Notes: generated by a model not told the origin, from the letters alone. Positions 5,921 to 19,335 are shown, counted from the stretch's first letter. The stretch is DNA of 64,000 bases from Alphaproteobacteria bacterium (GCA_965227515.1 CBDDFZ010000001.1:2496001-2560000), one strand, 5' to 3'. Numbers and translations are program-made.

Positions 5921-6397
5921 CTAGGCCGAGCCCTTCCCCAACCGATCCAGCGCCGACTGCAGGATGTAAGCGGCAGCGGCCTTGTCGACCAGTTCGCCAC
6001 GTCGCCGCCGGCTGAGATCGGCCTCGTCGGTCAGCATGCGCTCCACCGCCGCCGTCGACAGCCGCTCATCCCAGAACGCCAGCGGCAGGTCGCGGCGCTT
6101 GAGCAGATTGTGGGCGAACGCCTTGGTCGACTGGGCGCGCGGCCCGGTTGTGCCGTCCATGTTGAGCGGCAGGCCGAGCACGATGCCGTGCACGCCGTGT
6201 CGGTCGATCACCCCGAACAGGGCGTCCAGATCCGGCCCCAGCTTCTTGCCGCGACGGATGGTGTCCAGAGGGGTCGCGATGGTCCAGCGCGTGTCGCTCA
6301 GCGCCATGCCGATGGTGCGGGTGCCAAGGTCGAGCCCCAGCAGCCGGCCGTCGCGCGGGCGACCCTCCGACAGATCAGCCAGCTCGACAATCGCCAC
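5921..6397 (-). CDS. ruvX: RuvX/YqgF pre-16S rRNA nuclease
   Basis: LLGLDLGTRTIGMALSD, VLGLPLNMDG, FWDERLST, VDKAAAAYILQ. GTG start overlaps the upstream TAG. Confidence 0.95.
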   Translation of the reverse strand: MAIVELADLSEGRPRDGRLLGLDLGTRTIGMALSDTRWTIATPLDTIRRGKKLGPDLDALFGVIDRHGVHGIVLGLPLNMDGTTGPRAQSTKAFAHNLLKRRDLPLAFWDERLSTAAVERMLTDEADLSRRRRGELVDKAAAAYILQSALDRLGKGSA

Positions 6398-7239
6398 TAG
6401 CGTTCTTTCCGATACAGCACCATCGCGATCGGCGCGAAAATCGCGGTGATCACCGCCGGGCCGATCAGCGCCAAGCCGATGTCGGCCCAGTCGCCGGTGC
6501 CATGCACGATGCCACGGATCGCCGTGGTCATCAGCGCCACTGGGTTGACCGCGACGATGGCCTGCAGCCACTCCGGCATGGTGGCCGGGTCGATGTAGAC
6601 GTTGGACAGGAACACCACCGGCATCAGCACCAGCCAGCTGAGCGTCATGACGGTCGACGGCGTGCGCACGATCAGCCCGACGCAGGTAAACACCCAGCCG
6701 ATGCCGGTGGCGAACACCAGCAGCAGCAGGGTGGCCAGCACCAGGGCCATGTACCCGGCCTCCGGCGTGAAACCCAGGATCAGCCCCACCGCGATGACCA
6801 GCGCGGACGACACCGCATGGCGCATCAAATCGCCGCCGATGGCGCCGGCAATCGGCGACGGCGACCAGATCGGCATCGACTTGAAGCGGTCGAAGATGCC
6901 CTTGGAGATGTCGGTGTTCAGGGTGAAGCCGGTGTAGATGCAGGTGAACATCACCGTCTGCACCATGATTCCAGGCAGCAGGAACTGCAGGTAGGCATCG
7001 GTGGAGCCGGCCACCGCGCCGCCGAACAAGAAGGTGAACATGATGGTGAACATCACCGGCGTCACCACCATGTCGAACACCTGCTCCGGGCCGTGCTTGA
7101 TCTTCAGCCACGCCCGCCACGCGAAAGTGGCGACGTTGGCCAGCGCGCCGGGCGGTTGCGGCGCGCGGCGTTCGGCCAGCGCGGTGATCAGGTCGCGGTC
7201 CAGACTGGCATCGCCGCCATTGTCCACCTGCACGCTCAT
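6397..7239 (-). CDS. ABC-2 type exporter permease (DrrB-like)
   Basis: Multiple TM segments, [36 protein letters not shown]. Confidence 0.9.
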
Positions 7240-8237
7240 TGCGCTGCCTCCTGCTGCTGCGGTGCCGGGTCGTCGGGCTTGCGCGCCTTGCCGGTCAGCG
7301 CGAAGAACACCTCGTCCAGGCTGGGCCGGCCGAGCGAGAAGTCGGTCACCTCCAGCCCCTCAGCCTGCAGGGCGGCCAGAGCCTCGGTCGCCTGGCGCGG
7401 CTCGGCGATCTGTGCCGCCAGCGCGTGGCGGTCGGTCTCCGCGCGCACCTGGCCGTCCAACCGCGCCGTCAGCAGCGCGATTGCGTCGTCGCGCCGGTCC
7501 GCGTCAGCGAGCCGGACGTGCAGCACGCTGGTGCCCAGCGAGGCTTTCAGCTCGGCGCTGGTCCCTTCCGCGATCACCGTGCCGTGGTCGATGACGGCGA
7601 TGCGGTCGGCAAGCTGGTCGGCCTCCTCCAGGTACTGGGTCGTCAGCAGCACCGTGGTGCCGCCGGCGACCAGCGCGCGGATGATTTCCCACACCTGGCC
7701 ACGGCTGCGCGGGTCGAGCCCGGTCGTCGGCTCGTCAAGGAACAGCAGTTCCGGCGTGGCGATGATGCTGGCGGCGATATCCAGCCTGCGCCGCATGCCG
7801 CCGGAATAGGTGCGCACCTGGCGCTTGGCGGCATCGTCCAGCCCGAATGCGCGCAACAGTTCGGCGGCGCGCGCTTTCGCTTGCGCGCGGCCGAAGCCGA
7901 GGAGGCGGGCCAGCAGCACCATGTTCTCGGTACCGGACAGGTCCTCGTCGACCGAGGCGAACTGGCCGGTCAGGCTGATCCGCCGCCGGACCTCGGCCGG
8001 GGCCTGCGCCACGTCGTGGCCCAGGACGCAGGCGGTGCCGCCGGTGGGCCGCAGCAGGGTGGCCAGCAGGCGCACCAGCGTGGTTTTGCCGGCGCCATTG
8101 GGGCCGAGCAGGCCGTAGATCGAGCCCTGGCGCACCGACAGGCTGACGCCGTCGACGGCATGGGTGTCGCCGAAGTGCTTGACCAGATCGACGGTCTCGA
8201 TCGCGAGCTGTATCTGAGAGGAAGACGATATCGACAT
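7236..8237 (-). CDS. ABC exporter ATP-binding subunit (DrrA-like)
   Basis: Walker [10 protein letters not shown], signature [32 protein letters not shown]. Confidence 0.93.
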
Positions 8238-8512
8238 GAAAAACGCAAAGCGGCCTGCGCCACTCGATTGGGTCAAGGGGCGCGGCGGTTGAAAGAGATA
8301 GCGATGTAGGTTGGCCGGCGGCTGACGTTGCATAGCCCGCCCGGCCGCGTGCGTCGAGTGACAATCGACACACCCGGCGACACACGCCGATACTCTGCCG
8401 ACAACTCCTGCCACACGCGCCGCCATGCACGTTCGCCCGCTTGCAGCGAGGGCCGCGCGAGTGATAGTTTCCGGCCGCTTTTTCCACATCCGAGCCCGTC
8501 AGGAACATCGGC

Positions 8513-8800
8513 ATGGCCCTCGACACCGAAACCGTGCGCCGCGTCGCGCGGCTGGCGCGTATCCGCGTCAGCGACGACGAGATCGAAAGCCTCAGCACCG
8601 AGCTGCAGCACATCATGGGCTGGATCGACCAGCTCAATGAGGTCGACACCGCGAACGTCGAGCCGATGACCAGCGCGGTCGAGATGGGGCTGCGCTGGCG
8701 CGAGGACGGGGTGACCGACGGCGGCGCGGTCGACGATGTGCTGGCCAACGCGCCGGCCCGCTCCGACGCCTTCTATACTGTTCCGAAAGTGGTTGAATGA
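8513..8800 (+). CDS. gatC: Asp/Glu-tRNA amidotransferase subunit C
   Basis: [10 protein letters not shown]...YTVPKVVE; overlaps gatA start. Confidence 0.97.
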
Positions 8801-10293
8801 CGTCCGATATCACATTGACGCATATGACATTGGCGGAGGCGCGCGACAGCCTGCGACAGGGTGCGTTCACCGCTCGTGAGCTGTGCGAGGCGCACCTGCT
8901 GTCGGTGGACCAGCACGCCGGCCTCAACGCCATGATCACGGTCACCTCCGACCAGGCGCTCGACATGGCCGATGCCGCCGACCGCCAGTTGGCCGACCAT
9001 CGCGACGGCGGCGCGGCGCCGGGTGCGCTCGCCGGCATTCCGGTGGCGGTGAAGGATCTGTTCTGCACCGTCGGCGTGCCGACGACGGCGGGCAGCCACA
9101 TCCTGGACGGTTTCACCCCGACCTACGAGAGCACGGTGACGTCGAACCTGTGGGCGGCCGGTGCGGTGATGCTGGGCAAGACCAATCTGGACGAGTTCGC
9201 CATGGGCTCGTCGAACCTGACCAGCTACTACGGCCCGGCGGTCAACCCGTGGCGGGCGGCGGGCGATGACCGGCCCCGCGTCACCGGCGGCTCCTCCGGC
9301 GGCTCGGCGGCGGCGGTGGCGGCGCACATGGCGCTGGGGTCCATCGGCACCGATACCGGCGGGTCGATCCGCCAGCCGGCCTCGTTCTGTGGCGTGGTCG
9401 GCGTGAAGCCGAGCTACGGCCGCTGCTCGCGCTGGGGCGTGGTGGCGTTCGCCTCCTCGCTCGACCATCCGGGCCCGTTCGCCCGCACCGTGCGCGACGG
9501 CGCCATCATGCTGGGCGCGATGGCCGGCTTCGATCCCAAGGACTCGACCAGCGTCGACGTGGCGGTGCCGGACTACGAGGCGTCGCTCGGCGATGGCGTG
9601 CGCGGGCTGAAGATCGGCATCCCGAAGGAGTACCGCACGGACGACATGCCAACTGCCATCGAGGCGTTGTGGCAGGCCGGCGCCGACTGGCTGAAGGCGG
9701 CCGGCGCTGAGATCGTGGAGATCAGCCTGCCGCACACCAAATACGCGCTGCCGGCCTACTACATCATCGCTCCGGCGGAGGCGTCCTCGAACCTCGCCCG
9801 CTATGACGGGGTGCGCTATGGCCTGCGCTCCGAAGGCGCCGACCTGACCGAGATGTACGAGAACACCAGGGGCGACGGTTTCGGCGCGGAGGTCCGGCGG
9901 CGGGTGCTGATCGGCACCTACGTGCTCTCCGCCGGCTACTACGACGCCTACTACAACAAGGCGCGCCGTGTGCGGCAGCAGATCGCCGACGACTTCGCGG
10001 CCGCGTTCCGCGATGTCGACGCCATCCTGACGCCGACGACGCCGAATGCCGCCTTCCCGGTGGACGAGCCGATGACCGATCCGGTCGAGATGTACCTGAA
10101 CGACGTGTTCACGGTGCCGGCGGACCTGGCCGGCATTCCCGGCATCTCGGTGCCGAGTGGTCTGACCGACGACGGCCTGCCGCTGGGCCTGCAGGTGCTG
10201 GCGCCGGCGTTCGAGGAGACGACGGCGTTCCGGGTCGCCCAGGCGATCGAGGATGCGGCCGATTTCGCGGCCCTGCCGGGGGGAGATGCGTGA
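8797..10293 (+). CDS. gatA: Asp/Glu-tRNA amidotransferase subunit A
   Basis: Amidase signature [37 protein letters not shown]. Confidence 0.98.
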
Positions 10294-10309
10294 TGGCGCT
10301 GATTTGAGG
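10293..10309 (+). repeat. Left direct repeat of the island (decayed copy of the gatB 5' end)
   Basis: ATGGCGCTGATTTGAGG versus gatB start ATGGCGCTGATCCGAGG at 12367-12383 (15/17 identical). Its ATG overlaps the gatA TGA. Confidence 0.85.
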
Positions 10310-10314
10310 AAAAG

Positions 10315-10827
10315 TTAAGAAGCTGAAGCCGGCGGCAAATCCAATGCCTTCAACAACTTAAAAGCTTTCTCAAATCGTCCACCTTCAAGCTTAATGCCTT
10401 TACGCTGCTTTAGCTCCTTTTTCCAGTCCTCAACTTCTTCAACTTCGGATAGCCAATGCATCGTTGCAGCAAGTTCAAGGACCGTCGACGAGTTGTCCTC
10501 CAACTCCCTAACGGCCGACACTAACTTATCTTCCGATAGCAACCTGCTACCTTGAGCCACCGAAGCCTCAGATGGAGATTTATAGACTTCATAAGGCGCT
10601 CCATCGCTATGCCGATAGCGGACCTCCAAATTAAGTTCCCCCAGAGCGACATCAAACTCTACTTGATCGGCCAACTCCCTCGAAAACGGCCCATAATAGT
10701 GGTACGAGAAGGAAAAACCGCTATTCAGGCCAAGCTGATCTAACAGGTAAACGACCTTTTGAAGTCGGATCTTGCCAACCAATTCGCCTCCGTAGTCGCG
10801 AACAAAGTTCGAGATGTCGATGGGCAT
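10315..10827 (-). CDS. YwgA-like / Panacea (SocA, DUF4065)-related protein
   Basis: GKIRLQKVVYLL and FSYHYYGPFSRELA motifs, plus a LELAAT C-terminal motif; 16 bp downstream of the HD gene. Confidence 0.75.
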   Translation of the reverse strand: MPIDISNFVRDYGGELVGKIRLQKVVYLLDQLGLNSGFSFSYHYYGPFSRELADQVEFDVALGELNLEVRYRHSDGAPYEVYKSPSEASVAQGSRLLSEDKLVSAVRELEDNSSTVLELAATMHWLSEVEEVEDWKKELKQRKGIKLEGGRFEKAFKLLKALDLPPASAS

Positions 10828-10843
10828 GGCTTCACTCGCTCCT

Positions 10844-12250
10844 TCACATAGCGCTGATTGCGCGTTTCGCTTCTAAAAAGTCTGAATTATCCAAAAAATA
10901 AAATCTCTCAAAATACCTTACCTTCTCAGACCCGGTCAAGGTTGAATCATGAAATGCTGTGATCTCCCTCAGGTTGCCATCTGGCATCATTATCATGAGG
11001 CGTTTATGAGCCTTCTGGTCATCAGCACCAATTTCGCCATACAAAGACAATTTCGCGACATCATTTAAGACTACAGTGCCCATTTTGTCGGAAAATTTCC
11101 TTAGTAGGGCGCTTTTTATACGTCTTTGCTTCTCAAAATCATCTGGGAAGGTGTTTTGGATATCTATGCATTTTGGCTTTTCTCTATGGAGAATTCTTCG
11201 AGCTACATCACGAAGCGGTCCAGTCCCAAACATAGCTATGTCATGGATTGCCCCCCAGACAACTGTATCGTCCAATGCCCTATAATTACTGAGAGTCTCG
11301 CCACCAAGAGAAAAAAATTTAATCACCGGGTTTGTATTAGCTAAGCCTGATATGCAATTACCATCATTGATTTCATCAGAAACTAGGCGGAAAAATGCCG
11401 AAATCATCTGCTCGATGCCACGGGTGGTTTTGTGAAAATATACGTTTGTGTAGAGTCTATATCTGGACAATAAAAAGTCTTCTGCAGCGTCGCGTGCTTT
11501 GTGATACAGGCAGAAGCTATGGCCAATAATCTCACTATCGGTGTTGTCTGCTTCAGCAGGAGAAAAATCAATTGCGGCGACCCGGGCGTTATCCATCAAC
11601 CATTCTAAATCAATTGCACCGGATCCGGTGCCGGTCATATATCTGTCTCGGACAAGATAATCGAGTCGATCAGCGTCAAACGAGCTTGATACAATAGCGT
11701 GGTACATGTCTTCGGGCGTATCGTTCTCGAACAGATGAGCCACCTGATCGACATCGATATTTTCGGCAGTTAAAATAGAATGGATTTCCCCCTCGTTGTC
11801 TCTGATCATATCAGCAGTAAATTTTTCATGCGCGCGAATCGTATCGGATGCCCCACCTCTTTTCTTTGCAATGGATTTGCGCGCTTCTTCGAATGCATGG
11901 CTGAATGGTCCATGCCCTATATCATGCAGCAACGCTCCTAATACGCAAATTTTTGCACGTTCTTCGTCAAAGCTACCTTCGACACGTTCAGAGTCGATCT
12001 CTCGCTTGATAAGTTTGACGAGCCGCCGGGCGTTATGGAAAACACCCACTGAGTGTGCAAATCGCGTATGGCTGGCGGATGGGTAAACGAACTCGGAGAC
12101 GCCCAACTGCTTGATGCGTCGAAGACGCTGGAAGTCCGGAGTTTCGAGAAGCCTCCACGCGACTTTGTCAATGGGATCATCGAGTTCGAACACGATGATG
12201 TCGTGGATCGGATCACGCAATCGTTCTGTTTTTGTATGGCCAATGGTCAT
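10844..12250 (-). CDS. HD-domain phosphohydrolase, SAMHD1/YwfO-like putative dNTP triphosphohydrolase
   Basis: RDPIH, FQRLRRIKQLG, HTRFAHSVGV, LLHDIGHGPFSHAFE, DADRLDYLVRD, VYFHKTTR. Confidence 0.92.
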   Translation of the reverse strand: MTIGHTKTERLRDPIHDIIVFELDDPIDKVAWRLLETPDFQRLRRIKQLGVSEFVYPSASHTRFAHSVGVFHNARRLVKLIKREIDSERVEGSFDEERAKICVLGALLHDIGHGPFSHAFEEARKSIAKKRGGASDTIRAHEKFTADMIRDNEGEIHSILTAENIDVDQVAHLFENDTPEDMYHAIVSSSFDADRLDYLVRDRYMTGTGSGAIDLEWLMDNARVAAIDFSPAEADNTDSEIIGHSFCLYHKARDAAEDFLLSRYRLYTNVYFHKTTRGIEQMISAFFRLVSDEINDGNCISGLANTNPVIKFFSLGGETLSNYRALDDTVVWGAIHDIAMFGTGPLRDVARRILHREKPKCIDIQNTFPDDFEKQRRIKSALLRKFSDKMGTVVLNDVAKLSLYGEIGADDQKAHKRLMIMMPDGNLREITAFHDSTLTGSEKVRYFERFYFLDNSDFLEAKRAISAM

Positions 12251-12366
12251 GTGAACGTGCATAGAACAGATGATTGAGGATGTCAACCGAATCGCCAGCT
12301 AGATGGGCAACAGAGAATGCGCTACTTAGACGAAATGGTACTGTATGGCAAAGTATGGGACGAACC

Positions 12367-13824
12367 ATGGCGCTGATCCGAGGCACCACCGGCGATTGGG
12401 AACTGGTGATCGGGCTGGAAGTCCACGCCCAGGTCATGTCCGACGCCAAGCTGTTCTCAGGCGCGGCCACCGCGTTCGGCGCCGAGCCCAACCACCAGGT
12501 CAGCCTGGTCGACGCCGCCATGCCCGGCATGCTGCCGGTGATCAATGGCGCCTGCGTGCGCCAGGCGGTGCGCACCGGCCTCGGCCTGGGCGCCGAGATC
12601 AACCTGCGCTCCATCTTCGACCGCAAGAACTACTTCTACCCGGACCTGCCGCAGGGCTATCAGATCAGCCAGTACAAGGACCCGGTGGTCGGCCGCGGCG
12701 CGGTGGAGATCGACCTGGAGGATGGGTCGACCAAGACCATTCATATCGAGCGCCTGCACCTGGAGCAGGATGCCGGCAAATCGGTGCACGACCGCGACCC
12801 GCGCGTCACCTGCATCGACCTCAACCGCTCCGGCGTCGCGCTGATGGAGATCGTGTCGGAGCCGGACATGCGCTCGGCCGACGAGGCGGCGGCCTACGTC
12901 ACCAAGCTGCGCGCGATCATGCGCTATCTCGGCACCTGCGACGGCAACATGGAGGAGGGGTCGCTGCGCGCCGACGTCAACGTTTCGGTGCGGCGCGCCG
13001 GGGCCAACGAATACGGCACCCGTTGCGAGATCAAGAACGTCAACTCGATCCGTTTCATGCGCCAGGCCATCGCGTTCGAGGCGCACCGCCAGATCGAGAT
13101 CCTGGAGGATGGCGGCAGCATCGACCAGGAGACCCGGCTGTTCGACGCCAAGCGCGGCGAGACGCGGTCCATGCGCTCCAAGGAGGAGGCGCACGACTAT
13201 CGCTATTTCCCCGATCCCGACCTGTTGCCGCTGGAGCTCGACGCCGACTGGGTCGAGGAACTGCGCGCCGGCCTGCCCGAACTGCCCGACGCCAAGAAGC
13301 AGCGCTTCATGGCCGACTTCGGTCTCGGAGCCGAAGATGCCGCCGTGCTGGTGGCCGAGCGCGAGGCGGCCGAGTACTACGAGCGTGTCGTGGCCGTCGG
13401 CGGTGAGCCGAAGCTGGCGGCGAACTGGGTGGTCACCGAGCTGTTCGGCGCGCTGAACCGGGCCGGGCAGGGCATCGCGGACTCGCCCGTCTCGGCGGAG
13501 GATTTGGGCGGGCTGATCAAGCTGATCGCCGACGACACCATCTCCGGGCGCATCGCCAAGGACGTGTTCGCGGAGATGATGCAGACCGGCAAGCCCGCGA
13601 ACCAGATCGTCGAGGAAAAGGGCCTGCGCCAGATCACCGACACCGGCGCGATCGAGACCGCCATCGACGAGCTGATCGCCGCCAACCCGGACCAGGTGGC
13701 CGGCTACCGCGGCGGCAACCAGAAGCTGATCGGCTGGTTCGTCGGCCAGGTGATGAAGGCGACCCAGGGCAAGGCCAACCCGAAACTGGTCAACCAGGTG
13801 CTGCGGGCCAAGCTCGATGGCTGA
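12367..13824 (+). CDS. gatB: Asp/Glu-tRNA amidotransferase subunit B
   Basis: [52 protein letters not shown]. Confidence 0.98.
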
Positions 13825-14470
13825 CGGCGTGACCGAGAACCGGCCCATCGTCGACGACCCGGACGGCCCCGGCGCGTTCTGGGACGCCAAGTACCAGGAC
13901 GACGCCTACTTCTACGGCACCGAGCCGAACGCGTGGCTGACCCGCCAGCGCCATCGGCTGCCCGACGGCGGGCAGGTGCTTTCGGTGGCTGACGGCGAGG
14001 GTCGCAACGGCGTGTGGCTGGCCGGACAGGGCATGAAAGTGACGTCGGTCGATGCGTCCGGCCGCGCCCAGGCGAAGGCGAGCGCGCTGGCGCTGAAGCG
14101 CGGCGTGGCGCTAACCCAGGTCACCGCCGACCTCACCACCTGGGACTGGCCGACCGGCAAGTTCGACGCGGTGGTGGCTATTTTCGCCCATTTCCGGCGC
14201 GACCAGCGGCCGTCGATCCACCGCAACATGCTGGCCGCCTGCAAGCCCGGCGGTCTGGTGCTGCTGGAGGCGTTCTCGCCCTACCAGCGCATCTACGGCA
14301 CCGGTGGGCCGAAGGACATCGACATGCTCTACACCGCCCAGCGCCTGCGCGAGGATTTCGCCGACGCGGAAATCCTGGAGGTGGCGGAGGTGGAAGTCGA
14401 ACTCGACGAGGGCCCGGGCCACCGCGGCCCGTCGGCGGTGGCGCACATCGTGGCGCGTCGGCGGCCCTAG
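13817..14470 (+). CDS. Class I SAM-dependent methyltransferase
   Basis: [41 protein letters not shown]. Confidence 0.9.
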
Positions 14471-14517: not shown

Positions 14518-14642
14518 GTCATGGTCGGGCTTGGTGAGCCCGCCCTTGGGCCGGCCTCCGGCCGGTCCCGAGGGACCATCCACGAGCTGGCCGCTCAAGC
14601 GGCCAACAAGACGTGGATGCCCGCAACAAGTGCGGGCATGAC
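14518..14642. repeat. REP-like palindromic element, family A, with a nested ~40 bp insert
   Basis: gtcatggtcgggcttg...accatccacg...cgtggatgcccgcaacaagtgcgggcatgac; near-identical to 19336-19425 outside the insert. Confidence 0.85.
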
Positions 14643-14678
14643 GAATATGGTTTGGGCAATTGTGTATGGTTCGGCGCC

Positions 14679-15371
14679 ATGATCATCCCGCTCTATGACG
14701 GCAATCCGCGCCACCGCATCCCGTTCCAGTGGGTCACGGTGCTGCTGATCGGCGTCTGCGGCGTGGCGTTCCTCTACCAGCTCACTCTCTCAAGCGACGG
14801 CGAGGGCCTGCTCTATTGCCGCCTCGGCATGATCCCGGCCGACCTGTTCAACGTCTACGAATTGCCGGCGATGTGCGAGGTCGTGCCGGACTACGTGACG
14901 CTGCTGACGTCGGCGTTCCTGCATGCCGACTGGTGGCACCTGCTTGGCAACATGCTGTTCCTGTGGGTGTTCGGCGACAATGTCGAAGACGCCATGGGCC
15001 ATGTCCCGTTCATCGTCTTCTACGTCGTGTGCGCCGGCCTGTCGGCGCTGGCCCACGGCCTGATCGACACGGACTCGCTGTCGCCGCTGATCGGCGCCAG
15101 CGGCGCGATCTCCGGCGTCATGGGCGCCTATCTGATGCTGCACCCGCGCAAGGGCGTTTGGGTGCTGATCCTGATGCGGGTGCCGTTCAAGCTGCCGGCG
15201 TGGATCGCGCTAGGTGCCTGGTTCGGCTACCAGATCTTCAACGCCGTGTTCCTGGCAACCGACTACGACGCGACCGCCTGGGTCGCGCACATCGCCGGCT
15301 TCGTCGCCGGCGCGGCCCTCATCATCCCGATGCGCCACAAGTCGGTGCCGTTGTTCGACGGCAAGCGTTAG
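14679..15371 (+). CDS. Rhomboid family intramembrane serine protease
   Basis: FLHADWWHLLGNMLFLWVFGDNVED, IGASGAISG, AWVAHIAGF. Confidence 0.95.
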   Translation: MIIPLYDGNPRHRIPFQWVTVLLIGVCGVAFLYQLTLSSDGEGLLYCRLGMIPADLFNVYELPAMCEVVPDYVTLLTSAFLHADWWHLLGNMLFLWVFGDNVEDAMGHVPFIVFYVVCAGLSALAHGLIDTDSLSPLIGASGAISGVMGAYLMLHPRKGVWVLILMRVPFKLPAWIALGAWFGYQIFNAVFLATDYDATAWVAHIAGFVAGAALIIPMRHKSVPLFDGKR

Positions 15372-15898: not shown

Positions 15899-19273
<3,375 letters not shown>

Positions 19274-19335
19274 CGGGCCTCGCAGGCCATGACAAAACTC
19301 CATTGTCGTCCTTGACTGGCTCCTACAACTTCATC

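What the first reader, a model, noticed from the sequence alone, without database searches (positions are those of the whole stretch)
10310..12366. Low-GC HD-dNTPase + YwgA/Panacea-like two-gene cassette: candidate undescribed anti-phage or toxin-antitoxin module
Seen: two co-oriented genes 16 bp apart, antisense to gatA/gatB, much more AT-rich than the flanks. Gene 1 has an intact SAMHD1-type HD motif set (FQRLRRIKQLG, HTRFAHS, HDIGHGPFSH, DADRLDY). Gene 2 has KxxLQKxxYL and YGPFS motifs. Established: SAMHD1 and bacterial dGTPases restrict viruses by depleting dNTPs; the YGP motif is typical of SocA/Panacea (DUF4065) antitoxin-like domains; an HD + YwgA gene pair (ywfO-ywgA) exists in Bacillus subtilis. 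Inference: a horizontally acquired nucleotide-depletion effector restrained or triggered by its small partner.
Basis: partly seen in the sequence, partly recalled or inferred. Interest (0 to 1): 0.82.

Follow-up and report, generated by a model that had tools for sequence, protein, structure and literature searches.

The report
Imported dNTPase gene with binding partner
A foreign two-gene cassette, a SAMHD1-like nucleotide-destroying enzyme plus a small antitoxin-like protein predicted to bind it, has been inserted between two essential translation genes and may be an untested type of phage-defence or toxin-antitoxin module.

Summary
A 2,057-bp segment (10310-12366) has GC 0.46 against 0.68 for the rest of the window. 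It sits between gatA and gatB and is bounded by a 17-bp imperfect direct repeat that duplicates the 5' end of gatB. It carries two minus-strand genes.

- **Gene 1 (468 aa)** matches the solved HD protein EF1143 over its full length (E 1e-45) and SAMHD1 over its N-terminal part. All HD/HE motif residues are invariant in its family.
- **Gene 2 (170 aa)** has no Pfam family. By sequence profile and by fold, its only solved relative is the toxin-binding C-terminal domain of the antitoxin DarG (7yk3).

In 76 of 80 related loci the two genes are adjacent, and the two proteins' divergences track each other across loci. The pair usually has lower GC than its flanks and lies in unrelated neighbourhoods. 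In 14 of 80 loci it sits beside an HNH gene, and in most of those inside an SNF2 helicase-methylase-HNH restriction-like operon. A complex model supports binding (0.70; best control 0.00).

My best reading is a horizontally moving, partner-gated dNTP-depletion module. Toxicity, dNTPase activity and phage protection are untested. HD + Panacea pairs were already listed, untested, in a 2022 supplement, so this is a new variant rather than a new kind.

The parts
8797..10293 (+). gatA (left flank, host gene)
   Evidence: ORF. Pfam Amidase, E 4e-144. GC3 0.91.
10293..10309 (+). Left copy of the 17-nt direct repeat. It is a dead remnant of the gatB 5' end (ATG overlapping the gatA stop, then a stop after 4 codons).
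   Evidence: Repeat family D2 (ATGGCGCTGATTTGAGG). Reading frame read.
10315..10827 (-). Gene 2: 170-aa YwgA-like protein homologous to the DarG C-terminal domain; the predicted binding partner of the HD enzyme
   Evidence: ORF. No Pfam family. PADLOC DarG positions 170-300 of 329, E 2.8e-10. Profile against PDB 7yk3_B, E 1.1e-5. AlphaFold2 model pLDDT 94. Foldseek 7yk3_B probability 1.00, TM 0.59/0.54. Complex model.
10828..10843 (-). 16-nt spacer with a Shine-Dalgarno-like AGGAG directly after the HD stop codon
   Evidence: Read. In relatives the two genes usually overlap by 4 nt (32 of 63) or 1 nt (5 of 63).
10844..12250 (-). Gene 1: 468-aa HD-domain protein of the EF1143/SAMHD1 (COG1078 'YdhJ') type; a predicted dNTP triphosphohydrolase
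   Evidence: Pfam HD, E 3e-13, plus HD_assoc_2. PDB 2o6i/3irh/4lrl, E 1.3e-45 over residues 23-464; SAMHD1 chains E 1e-17 to 2e-21 over the N-terminal part. H61, H109, D110, H113, H118, H141, E142, D192, D194, Y198, Y271, H273 and R277 are invariant in 40 relatives.
12251..12366 (-). 116-nt low-GC leader upstream of the HD gene, the presumed promoter region. It is also all that separates the cassette from gatB.
   Evidence: GC 0.474. The sigma-70 consensus scan found no site here, so the promoter is inferred, not shown.
12367..12383 (+). Right copy of the direct repeat, which is the functional start of gatB
   Evidence: ATGGCGCTGATCCGAGG. The gatB translation starts MALIRGT.
12367..13824 (+). 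gatB (right flank, host gene)
   Evidence: Pfam GatB_N E 1.5e-119 and GatB_Yqey E 8.6e-54. GC3 0.93.

Best explanation
A compact two-gene operon was acquired horizontally and inserted at the gatA/gatB junction. Gene 1 is a SAMHD1/EF1143-type HD enzyme that (inferred) hydrolyses dNTPs. Gene 2 is a small winged-helix plus helical-bundle protein homologous to the toxin-binding C-terminal domain of the antitoxin DarG. It is made from the same transcript and (predicted) binds a family-specific surface of the enzyme.

I propose that the partner keeps the dNTPase off, or gates it, in uninfected cells. Loss, titration or a conformational change of the partner during phage infection would release dNTP hydrolysis. 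That would starve phage DNA replication, in the manner of a toxin-antitoxin-like abortive or bacteriostatic defence.

Shown by computation: the insertion, the gene families, the conserved pairing and co-inheritance, and the horizontal spread. Predicted: direct binding. Inferred only: dNTPase activity, toxicity, the direction of regulation, the trigger, and phage protection.
For: **Foreign insertion.** GC is 0.464 against 0.682 and GC3 is 0.46/0.53 against 0.91/0.93. A 17-nt repeat that duplicates the gatB start bounds exactly this segment.

**Enzyme family.** Gene 1 aligns over its full length to solved EF1143 (E 1.3e-45) and to SAMHD1 over the N-terminal part. The metal-binding and catalytic residues are invariant in 40 relatives.

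**Partner family.** The only significant solved relative, by sequence profile (E 1.1e-5) and by fold (probability 1.00, TM 0.59/0.54), is the DarG C-terminal domain in the DarT-DarG crystal structure. PADLOC and NCBIfam DarG models match the same part.

**Obligate pairing.** An HD homologue lies immediately upstream on the same strand in 76 of 80 related loci. Three of the other four are cut by a contig end. A start codon overlaps the HD stop by 4 nt in 32 of 63 loci and by 1 nt in 5 of 63. HD and partner pairwise distances correlate at r = 0.84, and 0 of 999 permutations reach that value.

**Binding.** Complex model score 0.70 (runs 0.70, 0.74, 0.68) against a best of three controls of 0.00. 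That mark was reached by 116 of 157 solved complexes and 2 of 215 mismatched pairs; these counts hold only roughly because my own alignments were used. The runs share at least 71% of contacts and the partner's pLDDT is at least 84. The interface includes the family-invariant residues of both proteins: partner R21, Y42, R72, D75, G76, Y79, T115, R142-K146; HD D228, A414, R417, M419, E429-T431. Four longer proteins carry HD-family sequence joined to the YwgA-like domain; two of them (653 and 623 aa) are full-length HD + YwgA fusions.

**Mobility.**
- The pair's GC is below its flank in 68 of 70 loci.
- Only these two genes are shared by all loci.
- The HD tree mixes families and places Desulfovibrionia, Beta- and Gammaproteobacteria and Actinomycetota-labelled contigs inside alphaproteobacterial clades.

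**Defence context in a subset.**
- 14 of 80 loci carry an HNH gene downstream, a 1,300-aa DrmMI/type IIG-like methylase upstream, and/or an SNF2 helicase upstream. In L011 the methylase stop overlaps the HD start.
- L065 has McrBC-like genes directly downstream.
- L064 has a type I restriction enzyme nearby and L070 a type IIG enzyme nearby.

**Effector decay with the partner kept.** In L025, the record of a complete genome, an IS4/IS5 transposase sits inside the HD gene. In L072 HD is frameshifted, and in L048 it is lost next to an IS remnant.

**Precedent.** Clover shows that a dNTPase effector is toxic alone and needs a partner to restrain it (PMC12265719, abstract and passages). HD + Panacea pairs were predicted as toxin-antitoxin pairs.
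Against: - No activity, toxicity or phage data exist for this family.
- Most loci (about 60 of 80) have ordinary housekeeping flanks: radA, uvrA, short-chain dehydrogenases, ABC ATPases. Defence-island enrichment is therefore modest and was not compared with a background rate.
- Only 130 of 267 neighbour ORFs (loci L001-L039) were scanned systematically against PADLOC, and my gene calling was crude.
- No homologue of gene 2 was found in 72,556 plasmid or 50,697 phage records.
- The same enzyme family includes YwfO of Firmicutes, which papers treat as a core housekeeping gene (PMC4993169, PMC3814617, passages). Relatives of gene 2 carry the name of its neighbour YwgA. A non-defence regulatory-subunit role is therefore plausible.
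- The HD protein fails the curated anti-phage dGTPase models (26 bits against a 400-bit cut-off).
- The direction of regulation (inhibitor or activator) cannot be read from the model.
- Several 'split' HD genes are in MAGs, where frameshifts may be assembly errors.
- The loci were collected through gene 2, so loss of gene 2 could not be seen.
Confidence: 0.45

Rival explanations
1. A regulated nucleotide-pool 'housekeeping' enzyme. The HD protein trims or sanitises dNTPs (or other nucleoside triphosphates), and the small protein is its regulatory subunit, as may be the case for YwfO-YwgA in Firmicutes. The pair is simply an accessory metabolic module that moves horizontally, with no toxin-antitoxin behaviour and no role in phage defence.
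For: - Relatives of gene 2 are labelled 'YwgA' by JGI.
- An Atlas neighbour cluster of the same size is mostly Bacillota.
- YwfO is discussed as a core gene, kept in a minimal genome and co-evolving with PolC (PMC4993169, PMC3814617, passages).
- Most loci have housekeeping flanks.
- Gene 2 has no homologue in the plasmid or phage collections.
Against: - Distribution is patchy and taxonomically incongruent, and GC is persistently low.
- The cassette is inserted into an essential operon.
- It is integrated into restriction-like operons in a subset of loci.
- The partner's only solved relative is an antitoxin's toxin-binding domain.
- The enzyme gene is disrupted by an IS while the partner is kept.
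Confidence: 0.27
2. A sub-module of a multi-gene restriction-like system (SNF2 helicase, large methylase, HD, YwgA-like, HNH). Here the HD protein acts on DNA or on modified nucleotides rather than depleting the dNTP pool, and the winged-helix partner targets nucleic acid. The window would carry only an orphaned two-gene remnant.
For: - The five genes are contiguous in L011, L032, L034 and L072, with the methylase stop overlapping the HD start in L011.
- The HNH gene follows the pair in 13 of 80 loci.
- Gene 2 has a winged-helix-like N-terminal half, and its weaker fold hits are PadR-type DNA binders.
Against: - 66 of 80 loci have the pair without any of these genes.
- On the HD tree the island label needs 7 changes, of which well-supported branches force at least 3, among the 10 island rows with an intact HD. 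The pair therefore joins and leaves the island.
- The HD protein keeps the full dNTPase-type motif set and aligns end to end with EF1143.
- The conserved face of gene 2 is predicted to contact the enzyme, not DNA.
Confidence: 0.1
3. Gene 2 is mainly a transcriptional autoregulator (a winged-helix repressor) of the operon and does not touch the enzyme.
For: - The N-terminal half has winged-helix-like topology.
- PadR-family regulators appear among the weak fold hits (E 0.1-0.4, probability 0.25-0.41).
Against: - Those hits are not significant, and the only significant ones are the DarG toxin-binding domain.
- The complex model passes with controls at 0.00 and uses the invariant residues.
- Fused HD-partner proteins exist.
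- NetFlax authors argue that Panacea-type domains are probably not the autoregulators (PMC10440598, passage).
Confidence: 0.08

Closest known systems
EF1143 (Enterococcus faecalis HD protein; PDB 2o6i/3irh/4lrl) and SAMHD1
   Same: Full-length sequence homology to EF1143 (E 1.3e-45, residues 23-464) and N-terminal homology to SAMHD1 (E about 1e-19 to 2e-21). The motifs match: QRLRxIKQLG, H...HD...GHGPFSH, HE, DADRxDY, VYFHK. That these two enzymes are dNTP triphosphohydrolases is recalled knowledge, supported for SAMHD1 by the PDB molecule names.
   Different: This family has an extra segment (about residues 228-243) and a C-terminal lobe that the model uses to bind a dedicated partner. EF1143 and SAMHD1 are regulated by nucleotides and are not known to me to have such a partner. 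There is no SAM domain.
DarG antitoxin, C-terminal domain (M. tuberculosis DarT-DarG complex, PDB 7yk3)
   Same: It is the only significant solved relative of gene 2 by profile (E 1.1e-5) and by fold (probability 1.00, TM 0.54-0.59). In DarG this part accompanies direct binding and inhibition of the toxin, as stated in the discussion of PMC8832971.
   Different: Gene 2 has no macrodomain and stands alone at 170 aa. Its neighbour is an HD enzyme, not a DarT ADP-ribosyltransferase. Identity in the structural alignment is about 14%.
PanA/Panacea (DUF4065, SocA-like) type II antitoxins, including the predicted HD ('YdhJ') + PanA pairs of Kurata et al. 2022
   Same: A small stand-alone protein follows its partner gene with overlapping or near-overlapping ORFs. 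It has a YGP-type motif. One UniRef name for a relative is 'DUF4065'. One of 30 Atlas neighbour clusters carries SocA_Panacea in 13% of its members. Five HD + PanA pairs (order toxin then antitoxin, gaps -17 to +23) are listed as predicted and 'notest' in supplementary file 1 of PMC8832971.
   Different: The window protein and 85 of 87 relatives do not match Pfam PF13274. The published pairs are from thermophilic Clostridia, and I could not compare their sequences. None has been tested.
Clover (CloA dGTPase + CloB nucleotidyltransferase) and single-gene anti-phage dGTPases
   Same: These share the logic proposed here. A dNTP-hydrolysing HD effector restricts phage, is toxic on its own and is restrained by the product of the neighbouring gene (PMC12265719, abstract and passages).
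   Different: The partner there is an enzyme that makes an inhibitory nucleotide (p3diT). Here it is a non-enzymatic binding protein. The known anti-phage dGTPase enzymes are only distant relatives of this one: the Shewanella dGTPase 9p8w (E 0.001), PADLOC dGTPase (E 8.7e-9, N-terminal third only) and NCBIfam antiphage_dGTPase (26 bits against a 400-bit cut-off).

Membership tests
HD-domain dNTP triphosphohydrolases of the EF1143/SAMHD1 type | HD domain recognised by a curated model | tested here: met
   Pfam PF01966 at 50.4 bits (cut-off 22), plus HD_assoc_2 at 23.3 bits (cut-off 23.1).
HD-domain dNTP triphosphohydrolases of the EF1143/SAMHD1 type | End-to-end homology to a solved member | tested here: met
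   2o6i/3irh/4lrl, E 1.3e-45, query residues 23-464 against chain residues 40-444. SAMHD1 chains match over the N-terminal part only.
HD-domain dNTP triphosphohydrolases of the EF1143/SAMHD1 type | Metal-binding H...HD...D residues and the HE catalytic dyad conserved | tested here: met
   H61, H109, D110, D194, H141 and E142 are invariant in 40 relatives and align with the same residues of EF1143. The requirement for an HD motif and HE dyad is stated in PMC12265719.
HD-domain dNTP triphosphohydrolases of the EF1143/SAMHD1 type | Hydrolysis of dNTP to deoxynucleoside plus triphosphate; nucleotide-dependent oligomerisation | not testable with these tools
   Needs an enzyme assay and solution studies.
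Anti-phage dGTPase (Dgt type; PADLOC dGTPase, NCBIfam NF041026) | Score above the curated family cut-off over the whole protein | tested here: not met
   NF041026 scores 26.4 bits against a 400-bit cut-off. TIGR01353 scores 40.2 against 152. The PADLOC dGTPase model matches only residues 33-145.
SocA/Panacea antitoxin domain (Pfam PF13274, DUF4065) | Match to the Pfam model | tested here: not met
   The window protein gives no hit. Only 2 of 87 family members match, best E 0.026.
SocA/Panacea antitoxin domain (Pfam PF13274, DUF4065) | Remote kinship (shared motif, naming, neighbouring clusters) | tested here: inconclusive
   The YGPxS motif is nearly invariant. One UniRef 'DUF4065' name was seen. 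One Atlas neighbour cluster has SocA_Panacea on 13% of its members. No profile-profile test against Panacea was possible.
DarG antitoxin | C-terminal toxin-binding domain | tested here: met
   Profile against 7yk3_B, E 1.1e-5. Foldseek probability 1.00, TM 0.59/0.54. PADLOC DarG positions 170-300 of 329.
DarG antitoxin | N-terminal macrodomain and a DarT partner | tested here: not met
   The protein is 170 aa and matches only the C-terminal part. NCBIfam antitoxin_DarG scores 26.5 bits against a 250-bit cut-off. The neighbouring gene is an HD protein.
Type II toxin-antitoxin pair | Two adjacent co-directional genes, coupled and inherited together | tested here: met
   76 of 80 loci are adjacent. 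Overlap is 4 nt in 32 of 63 loci and 1 nt in 5 of 63. Distance correlation r = 0.84.
Type II toxin-antitoxin pair | Direct protein-protein complex | tested here: inconclusive
   The model supports binding but does not show it: 0.70 against a best control of 0.00. The mark was reached by 116 of 157 solved complexes and 2 of 215 mismatched pairs.
Type II toxin-antitoxin pair | Toxicity of one gene, neutralised by the other | not testable with these tools
   Needs expression experiments.
Clover (CloA/CloB) | Partner is a Pol-beta-type nucleotidyltransferase that makes an inhibitory nucleotide | tested here: not met
   Gene 2 has no nucleotidyltransferase match in Pfam, NCBIfam or PADLOC. Its fold is winged helix plus helical bundle.
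Defence-island gene | Neighbours enriched for known defence genes | tested here: inconclusive
   14 of 80 loci carry HNH, DrmMI-like methylase or SNF2 genes. McrBC, type I or type IIG genes occur in three or four more loci. No background rate was computed. Only 130 of 267 called neighbour ORFs were scanned systematically. Some PADLOC hits were false: mad3 on UvrA/ABC ATPases, and PycTIR on a Crp-like regulator.

The most novel reading that the evidence does not exclude
This would be a new class of immune module. A DarG-C-terminal-domain-like protein acts as a dedicated protein 'gate' or sensor on a SAMHD1-clade dNTPase, so regulation is protein-based rather than nucleotide-based as in Clover or SAMHD1. 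The module works alone, and it also plugs into SNF2 helicase-methylase-HNH restriction operons as a second, nucleotide-depletion layer. It would also mean that the toxin-binding domain of DarG is a portable regulator reused for unrelated effectors.
Probability: 0.3. Interest if true: 0.75.

Novelty: new variant of a known kind. Interest (0 to 1): 0.6.

Why it matters
dNTP depletion is an antiviral strategy shared by humans (SAMHD1) and bacteria (dGTPase, dCTP deaminase, Clover).

The bacterial examples characterised so far use Dgt-type enzymes. Where control is known, it is exerted through nucleotides.

If this cassette works as proposed, it would do three things:
- It would place the true SAMHD1/EF1143 branch of the family in bacterial immunity.
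- It would show a protein-subunit way of keeping such a toxic enzyme safe.
- It would link the uncharacterised YwgA family, and possibly the widespread Firmicute ywfO-ywgA pair, to the DarG toxin-binding domain.

The cassette is only 2 kb and has clear catalytic residues to mutate, so the hypothesis can be tested directly in E. coli.

Tried and rejected
- **Pfam on gene 2 and on 87 relatives.** There was no family; SocA_Panacea matched only 2 of 87 weakly. I therefore do not file gene 2 as Panacea.
- **Single-sequence PDB search with gene 2.** Nothing significant. Only the family profile found DarG.
- **tblastn of gene 2 against plasmids and phages.** No match in either collection. The vehicle of transfer stays unknown.
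- **Viral fold library.** The best hits are uncharacterised Sulfolobus virus proteins (E about 1e-3, TM 0.5-0.6). This was uninformative.
- **PADLOC neighbour hits judged false or generic after a Pfam check.**
  - 'mad3/mad8' falls on a UvrA-like 970-aa ABC protein and on ABC-F ATPases.
  - 'PycTIR' falls on a Crp-like cNMP-binding regulator.
  - 'PycC' is probably a generic cyclase domain.
  - 'dGTPase' next to the pair in L003 is a full-length Dgt-type gene that may be the host's own.
- **Neighbour scan coverage.** Only L001-L039 were scanned systematically (130 of 267 ORFs called by my own crude GC-frame gene caller). Another 36 hand-picked large ORFs went.
- **Promoter and terminator scan of the insert.** Counts were no higher than in shuffled sequence, and there was no site in the 12251-12366 leader.
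- **No tRNA gene in the window**, so the cassette is not a tRNA-targeted island.
- **No integrase or transposase** lies inside the cassette.
- **Literature.**
  - 'YwgA' gave 12 papers, and in the listing only two were on bacteria, with one occurrence each; I opened none of them, so whether any characterises the protein was not read.
  - 'YwfO' gave 3 papers.
  - 'DUF4065' with 'HD domain' gave only the toxSAS paper.
  - PMC8120803 had nothing on the DarG C-terminal fold.
  - 9mr6 is a fungal SAMHD1, seen in the search listing only.
- **Could not be done.**
  - A second scan of genome contigs to look for an empty gatA-gatB junction in close relatives, or for HD genes lacking a partner.
  - I could not fetch the B. 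subtilis YwfO/YwgA sequences or the Kurata HD-PanA sequences for direct comparison.
Full report
**1. The observation**

The window has two co-directional minus-strand ORFs where the finding says.

- The first is an HD-domain gene. The ORF list gives 10844..12286 (480 aa from a TTG). The protein database holds the window's own version as 468 aa (P0121), which starts at the ATG at 12250.
- The second is 10315..10827 (170 aa).
- They are 16 nt apart. On the coding strand the spacer begins with AGGAG directly after the HD stop codon (read).
- The flanks are gatA (8797..10293) and gatB (12367..13824) on the other strand (Pfam).

The composition stands out.

- The segment 10310-12366 has GC 0.464, against 0.682 for the rest of the window.
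- GC3 is 0.46 and 0.53 for the two genes, against 0.91 and 0.93 for gatA and gatB.
- No other 1-kb bin of the 64 kb falls below 0.61.

**2. How it got there**

A 17-nt imperfect direct repeat (15 of 17 identical) bounds exactly this segment: ATGGCGCTGATTTGAGG at 10293-10309 and ATGGCGCTGATCCGAGG at 12367-12383.

- The right copy is the real start of gatB (MALIRGT...).
- The left copy begins with the A of the gatA stop codon and runs into a stop after four codons.

The ancestral arrangement was therefore a gatA stop overlapping the gatB start. About 2.06 kb of foreign DNA went into the first codons of gatB, with a duplication that preserved the gene.

The cassette is minimal: a 116-nt leader, the HD gene, a 16-nt spacer, the partner gene, and 5 nt. 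It has no integrase or transposase, the window has no tRNA gene, and no terminator follows the partner gene; the three terminator-like sites the scan found lie inside the HD gene and are no more than shuffled sequence gives. The mechanism of insertion is unknown.

The GC gap of 0.22 is larger than in any of 70 related loci (maximum 0.21, median 0.08). Together with the nearly intact repeat, this suggests a fairly recent arrival.

**3. Gene 1**

- Pfam finds HD (PF01966) and HD_assoc_2.
- Against solved structures the best match is the Enterococcus faecalis HD protein EF1143 (2o6i/3irh/4lrl), E 1.3e-45 over residues 23-464. Two other bacterial HD proteins, a fungal SAMHD1 (9mr6; identified from the search listing of PMC12042053) and about 25 SAMHD1 sequences follow. 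For SAMHD1 the match is E 1e-17 to 2e-21 over the N-terminal part only.
- Dgt-type dGTPases are only marginal hits. These include the anti-phage Shewanella enzyme 9p8w (E 0.001), PADLOC dGTPase (E 8.7e-9, one third of the model) and NCBIfam antiphage_dGTPase (26 bits against a cut-off of 400).
- In an alignment of 40 relatives, the H...HD...D metal ligands, the GHGPFSH loop, the HE dyad, DADRxDY and VYFHKxxR are invariant.

Gene 1 is therefore a member of the EF1143/SAMHD1 branch with an apparently intact active site. That this branch hydrolyses dNTPs is established knowledge that I recall. It was not tested here.

**4. Gene 2**

- It has no Pfam family. Across 87 relatives only 2 touch SocA_Panacea weakly, best E 0.026.
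- JGI labels many relatives 'uncharacterized protein YwgA', and one UniRef name is 'DUF4065'.
- PADLOC and NCBIfam DarG models match it, but only in their C-terminal part and below the cut-off.
- A profile of the family finds one solved protein: chain B of 7yk3, the DarG C-terminal domain in the M. tuberculosis DarT-DarG crystal structure, at E 1.1e-5.
- An AlphaFold2 model (pLDDT 94, pTM 0.90) has a winged-helix-like N-terminal half and a four-helix C-terminal half.
- Foldseek against the PDB gives the two 7yk3 chains, B and D, as the only hits at probability 1.00 (TM 0.51-0.59; only chain B is at E <= 0.001). All other hits are non-significant.

DarG both reverses DarT's modification and directly binds and inhibits DarT, as stated in the discussion of PMC8832971. 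Gene 2 is therefore a stand-alone relative of an antitoxin's toxin-binding domain. It is not a demonstrable Panacea member.

**5. The pair elsewhere**

This is a lower bound, because only two peptide patterns were used. Eighty loci were fetched, and 70 of them are titled Alphaproteobacteria.

*Adjacency and integrity of the HD gene*
- In 76 of 80 loci an HD homologue lies immediately upstream on the same strand. Three of the other four are cut by the contig end, and L048 has lost it.
- 63 loci have an uninterrupted HD ORF of at least 430 aa.
- Among those 63, a partner-frame start codon overlaps the HD stop by 4 nt in 32 and by 1 nt in 5.

*Co-inheritance*
- HD and partner pairwise distances correlate at r = 0.84, and 0 of 999 permutations reach that value.
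- All-against-all clustering of ORFs shows that only these two genes are shared by all loci.
- The pair's GC is below its flanks in 68 of 70 loci.

*Phylogeny.* The HD tree (quick IQ-TREE, 64 rows) does not follow taxonomy.
- Bradyrhizobium and Nitrobacter, three Mesorhizobium, and two sets of Methylocystaceae fall in separate clades.
- Desulfovibrionia, a Comamonadaceae, an Immundisolibacterales and two Actinomycetota-labelled MAG contigs nest among Alphaproteobacteria.

The pair is a unit that moves horizontally.

*Mobile elements.* Gene 2 has no homologue in 72,556 plasmid or 50,697 phage records.

**6. Neighbourhoods**

Most flanks are ordinary genes: radA in three Bradyrhizobium loci, a UvrA-like gene in four loci, short-chain dehydrogenases and ABC ATPases.

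Fourteen of 80 loci carry one or more of three recurring neighbours.
- An HNH endonuclease just downstream, in 13 loci.
- A 1,300-aa DrmMI/type IIG-like methyltransferase just upstream, in 11 loci.
- An SNF2 helicase further upstream, in 6 loci; this count is limited by flank length. It matches a PADLOC 'DpdE' model end to end (E 2e-186) and DrmD models.

In L011 the genes run SNF2, methylase, HD, partner, HNH, and the methylase stop overlaps the HD start. There the pair is part of a restriction-like operon.

On the HD tree this context needs 7 changes among the 10 island rows. Well-supported branches force at least 3, and 7 of 500 shuffles are as low. The context is therefore clustered but has more than one origin.

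Other restriction genes sit next to the pair in a few loci.
- L065: McrB-like and McrC genes downstream, and a DpdF-like helicase upstream.
- L064: a type I restriction enzyme nearby.
- L070: a type IIG enzyme nearby.

I did not compute a background rate, and the systematic PADLOC scan covered only L001-L039 (130 of 267 called neighbour ORFs). Several PADLOC hits proved generic on a Pfam check. The defence association is real but holds only for a minority of loci.

**7. Do the two proteins bind?**

- The score was 0.70 (runs 0.70, 0.74, 0.68), against a best of three controls of 0.00.
- That mark was reached by 116 of 157 solved complexes and by 2 of 215 mismatched pairs. These counts hold only roughly because my own alignments were used.
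- The runs share at least 71% of contacts, and the partner's pLDDT is at least 84.

The model supports binding but does not show it. A solved DarT-DarG complex exists, but the partner here is unrelated to DarT, so a pass from memory seems unlikely.

The confident interface uses these residues.
- Partner: 17-21, 41-45, 57-62, 70-81, 113-115 and 141-148. These include the family-invariant R21, Y42, R72, D75, G76, Y79, T115 and R142-K146.
- HD protein: 136-137, 172-180, 228-243, 372-376, 413-432 and 444. These include the invariant D228, A414, R417, M419 and E429-T431.
- Segment 228-243 lies in a stretch that is gapped in the EF1143 alignment.

A search for longer proteins found four that carry HD-family sequence joined to the partner domain. 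Two are full-length fusions (653 and 623 aa). They are rare and could be read-through artefacts, so this is weak support.

**8. Decay pattern**

- In L025 (a complete genome record) an IS4/IS5 transposase gene sits inside the HD gene, while the partner gene is intact.
- In L072 (an isolate) HD is in two frames.
- In L048 HD is gone, next to an IS remnant.
- Four more loci (L014, L019, L020, L043) show HD as two pieces and L040 keeps only two short C-terminal pieces. I did not check these individually, and four of the five are MAG contigs, where errors are possible.

Loss of the effector with the partner retained fits a costly or toxic enzyme. The loci were collected through the partner gene, however, so the reverse case could not be seen.

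**9. What is in print**

- *Clover* (PMC12265719; abstract and passages read). This is a two-gene defence in which a dGTPase is toxic alone and is restrained by a nucleotidyltransferase partner that makes an inhibitory nucleotide. It is the closest system in logic, but both proteins differ from those here.
- *The Panacea paper* (PMC8832971; passages and supplementary file 1 read). The main text does not mention HD enzymes. Its sheet of 1,268 predicted pairs contains five 'HD domain-containing protein' (CDD YdhJ) + PanA pairs from thermophilic Clostridia, all marked 'notest'. Two more were flagged as not conserved.
- *NetFlax* (PMC10440598; passages read). It shows that stand-alone Panacea can neutralise toxins directly, and it proposes a sensor role.
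- *Name searches.* 'YwgA' returned 12 papers; going by the listing only two concern bacteria, and I opened none, so I cannot say from reading that the protein is uncharacterised. 'YwfO' returned three papers that treat it as a core Firmicute gene.
- PADLOC 2.0 has no system model that both genes match together.

I found no tested example of an EF1143/SAMHD1-type enzyme paired with a DarG-C-terminal/YwgA-type protein in these searches. Subscription-only papers were not searchable.

**10. Verdict**

The feature is real, foreign and cleanly delimited.

The best-supported reading is a mobile operon encoding a dNTP-hydrolysing HD enzyme and a dedicated binding partner of antitoxin ancestry. I think it most likely works as a partner-gated nucleotide-depletion module of the toxin-antitoxin or anti-phage kind (confidence about 0.45).

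The main rival is a non-defensive, regulated nucleotide-pool enzyme like the Firmicute ywfO-ywgA pair (about 0.27). Smaller shares go to a restriction-system sub-module and to a purely transcriptional role for gene 2.

The concept is close to known systems, and HD + Panacea pairs were already listed computationally. I therefore rate it a new variant of a known kind, of moderate to good interest because it is small, widespread in soil Alphaproteobacteria and easy to test.

Noticed in passing
L011:2-9300 (also L021, L032, L034, L053, L072, L079 and others): A contiguous five-gene operon: SNF2 helicase (PADLOC 'DpdE' E 2e-186, also DrmD), a 1,300-aa DrmMI/type IIG-like methylase, HD, the YwgA-like gene, and an HNH nuclease. 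The methylase stop overlaps the HD start. It resembles no complete PADLOC system that I could name. L021 has an extra Peptidase_M78 (IrrE-like) gene between the methylase and HD.
   Followed up: partly
L025:5577-7969: In this complete genome record (Mesorhizobium sp. AaZ16), an IS4/IS5-family transposase gene (DDE_Tnp_1 + DUF4096) interrupts the HD gene between about residues 163 and 180. The partner gene stays intact. L048 has lost HD next to a similar IS remnant, and L072 has HD in two frames.
   Followed up: partly
L016:4378-8477: A second, distantly related copy of the pair (44% HD identity) also lies just downstream of gatC-gatA, but on the same strand and without gatB after it. This could be chance, or a preference for the end of the gatCA operon. 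The contig is labelled Mycobacteriaceae but has alphaproteobacterial-type neighbours in the HD tree.
   Followed up: partly
window 10294-12366: The insertion separates gatB from gatA by 2 kb of antisense-transcribed DNA. gatB must now be expressed either by read-through against the cassette's transcription or from a promoter in the imported 116-nt leader. No consensus promoter was found there.
   Followed up: no
L065:8629-12383 and L065:2-3658: In a Desulfonatronum MAG, the pair is followed directly by McrB-like (Mrr_N + AAA_5) and McrC genes. It is preceded, on the other strand, by a 1,219-aa DpdF-like/UvrD-type helicase. All of these have lower GC than the flanks.
   Followed up: partly
P0391 (653 aa), P0393 (623 aa), P0392, P0390: Metagenome proteins in which the HD enzyme and the YwgA-like domain form one polypeptide. 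These are either genuine fusions or read-through caused by a frameshift at the usual 4-nt overlap.
   Followed up: no
L003:9014-10207 (minus strand): In Methylosinus sporium, a full-length Dgt-type dGTPase gene (PADLOC dGTPase, E 1e-100) lies convergent to the pair about 0.5 kb downstream. That places two different dNTPase families side by side.
   Followed up: no
window 15899-19303 (minus strand): A 1,134-aa DNA polymerase III alpha-type protein (PHP, DNA_pol3_alpha, finger, HHH_6 and OB domains). Its size and position away from other replication genes suggest an error-prone DnaE2-type copy. Nearby are a DrrA-like ABC exporter pair at 6397-8489, a rhomboid protease at 14613-15371 and a SAM methyltransferase at 13817-14470.
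   Followed up: partly
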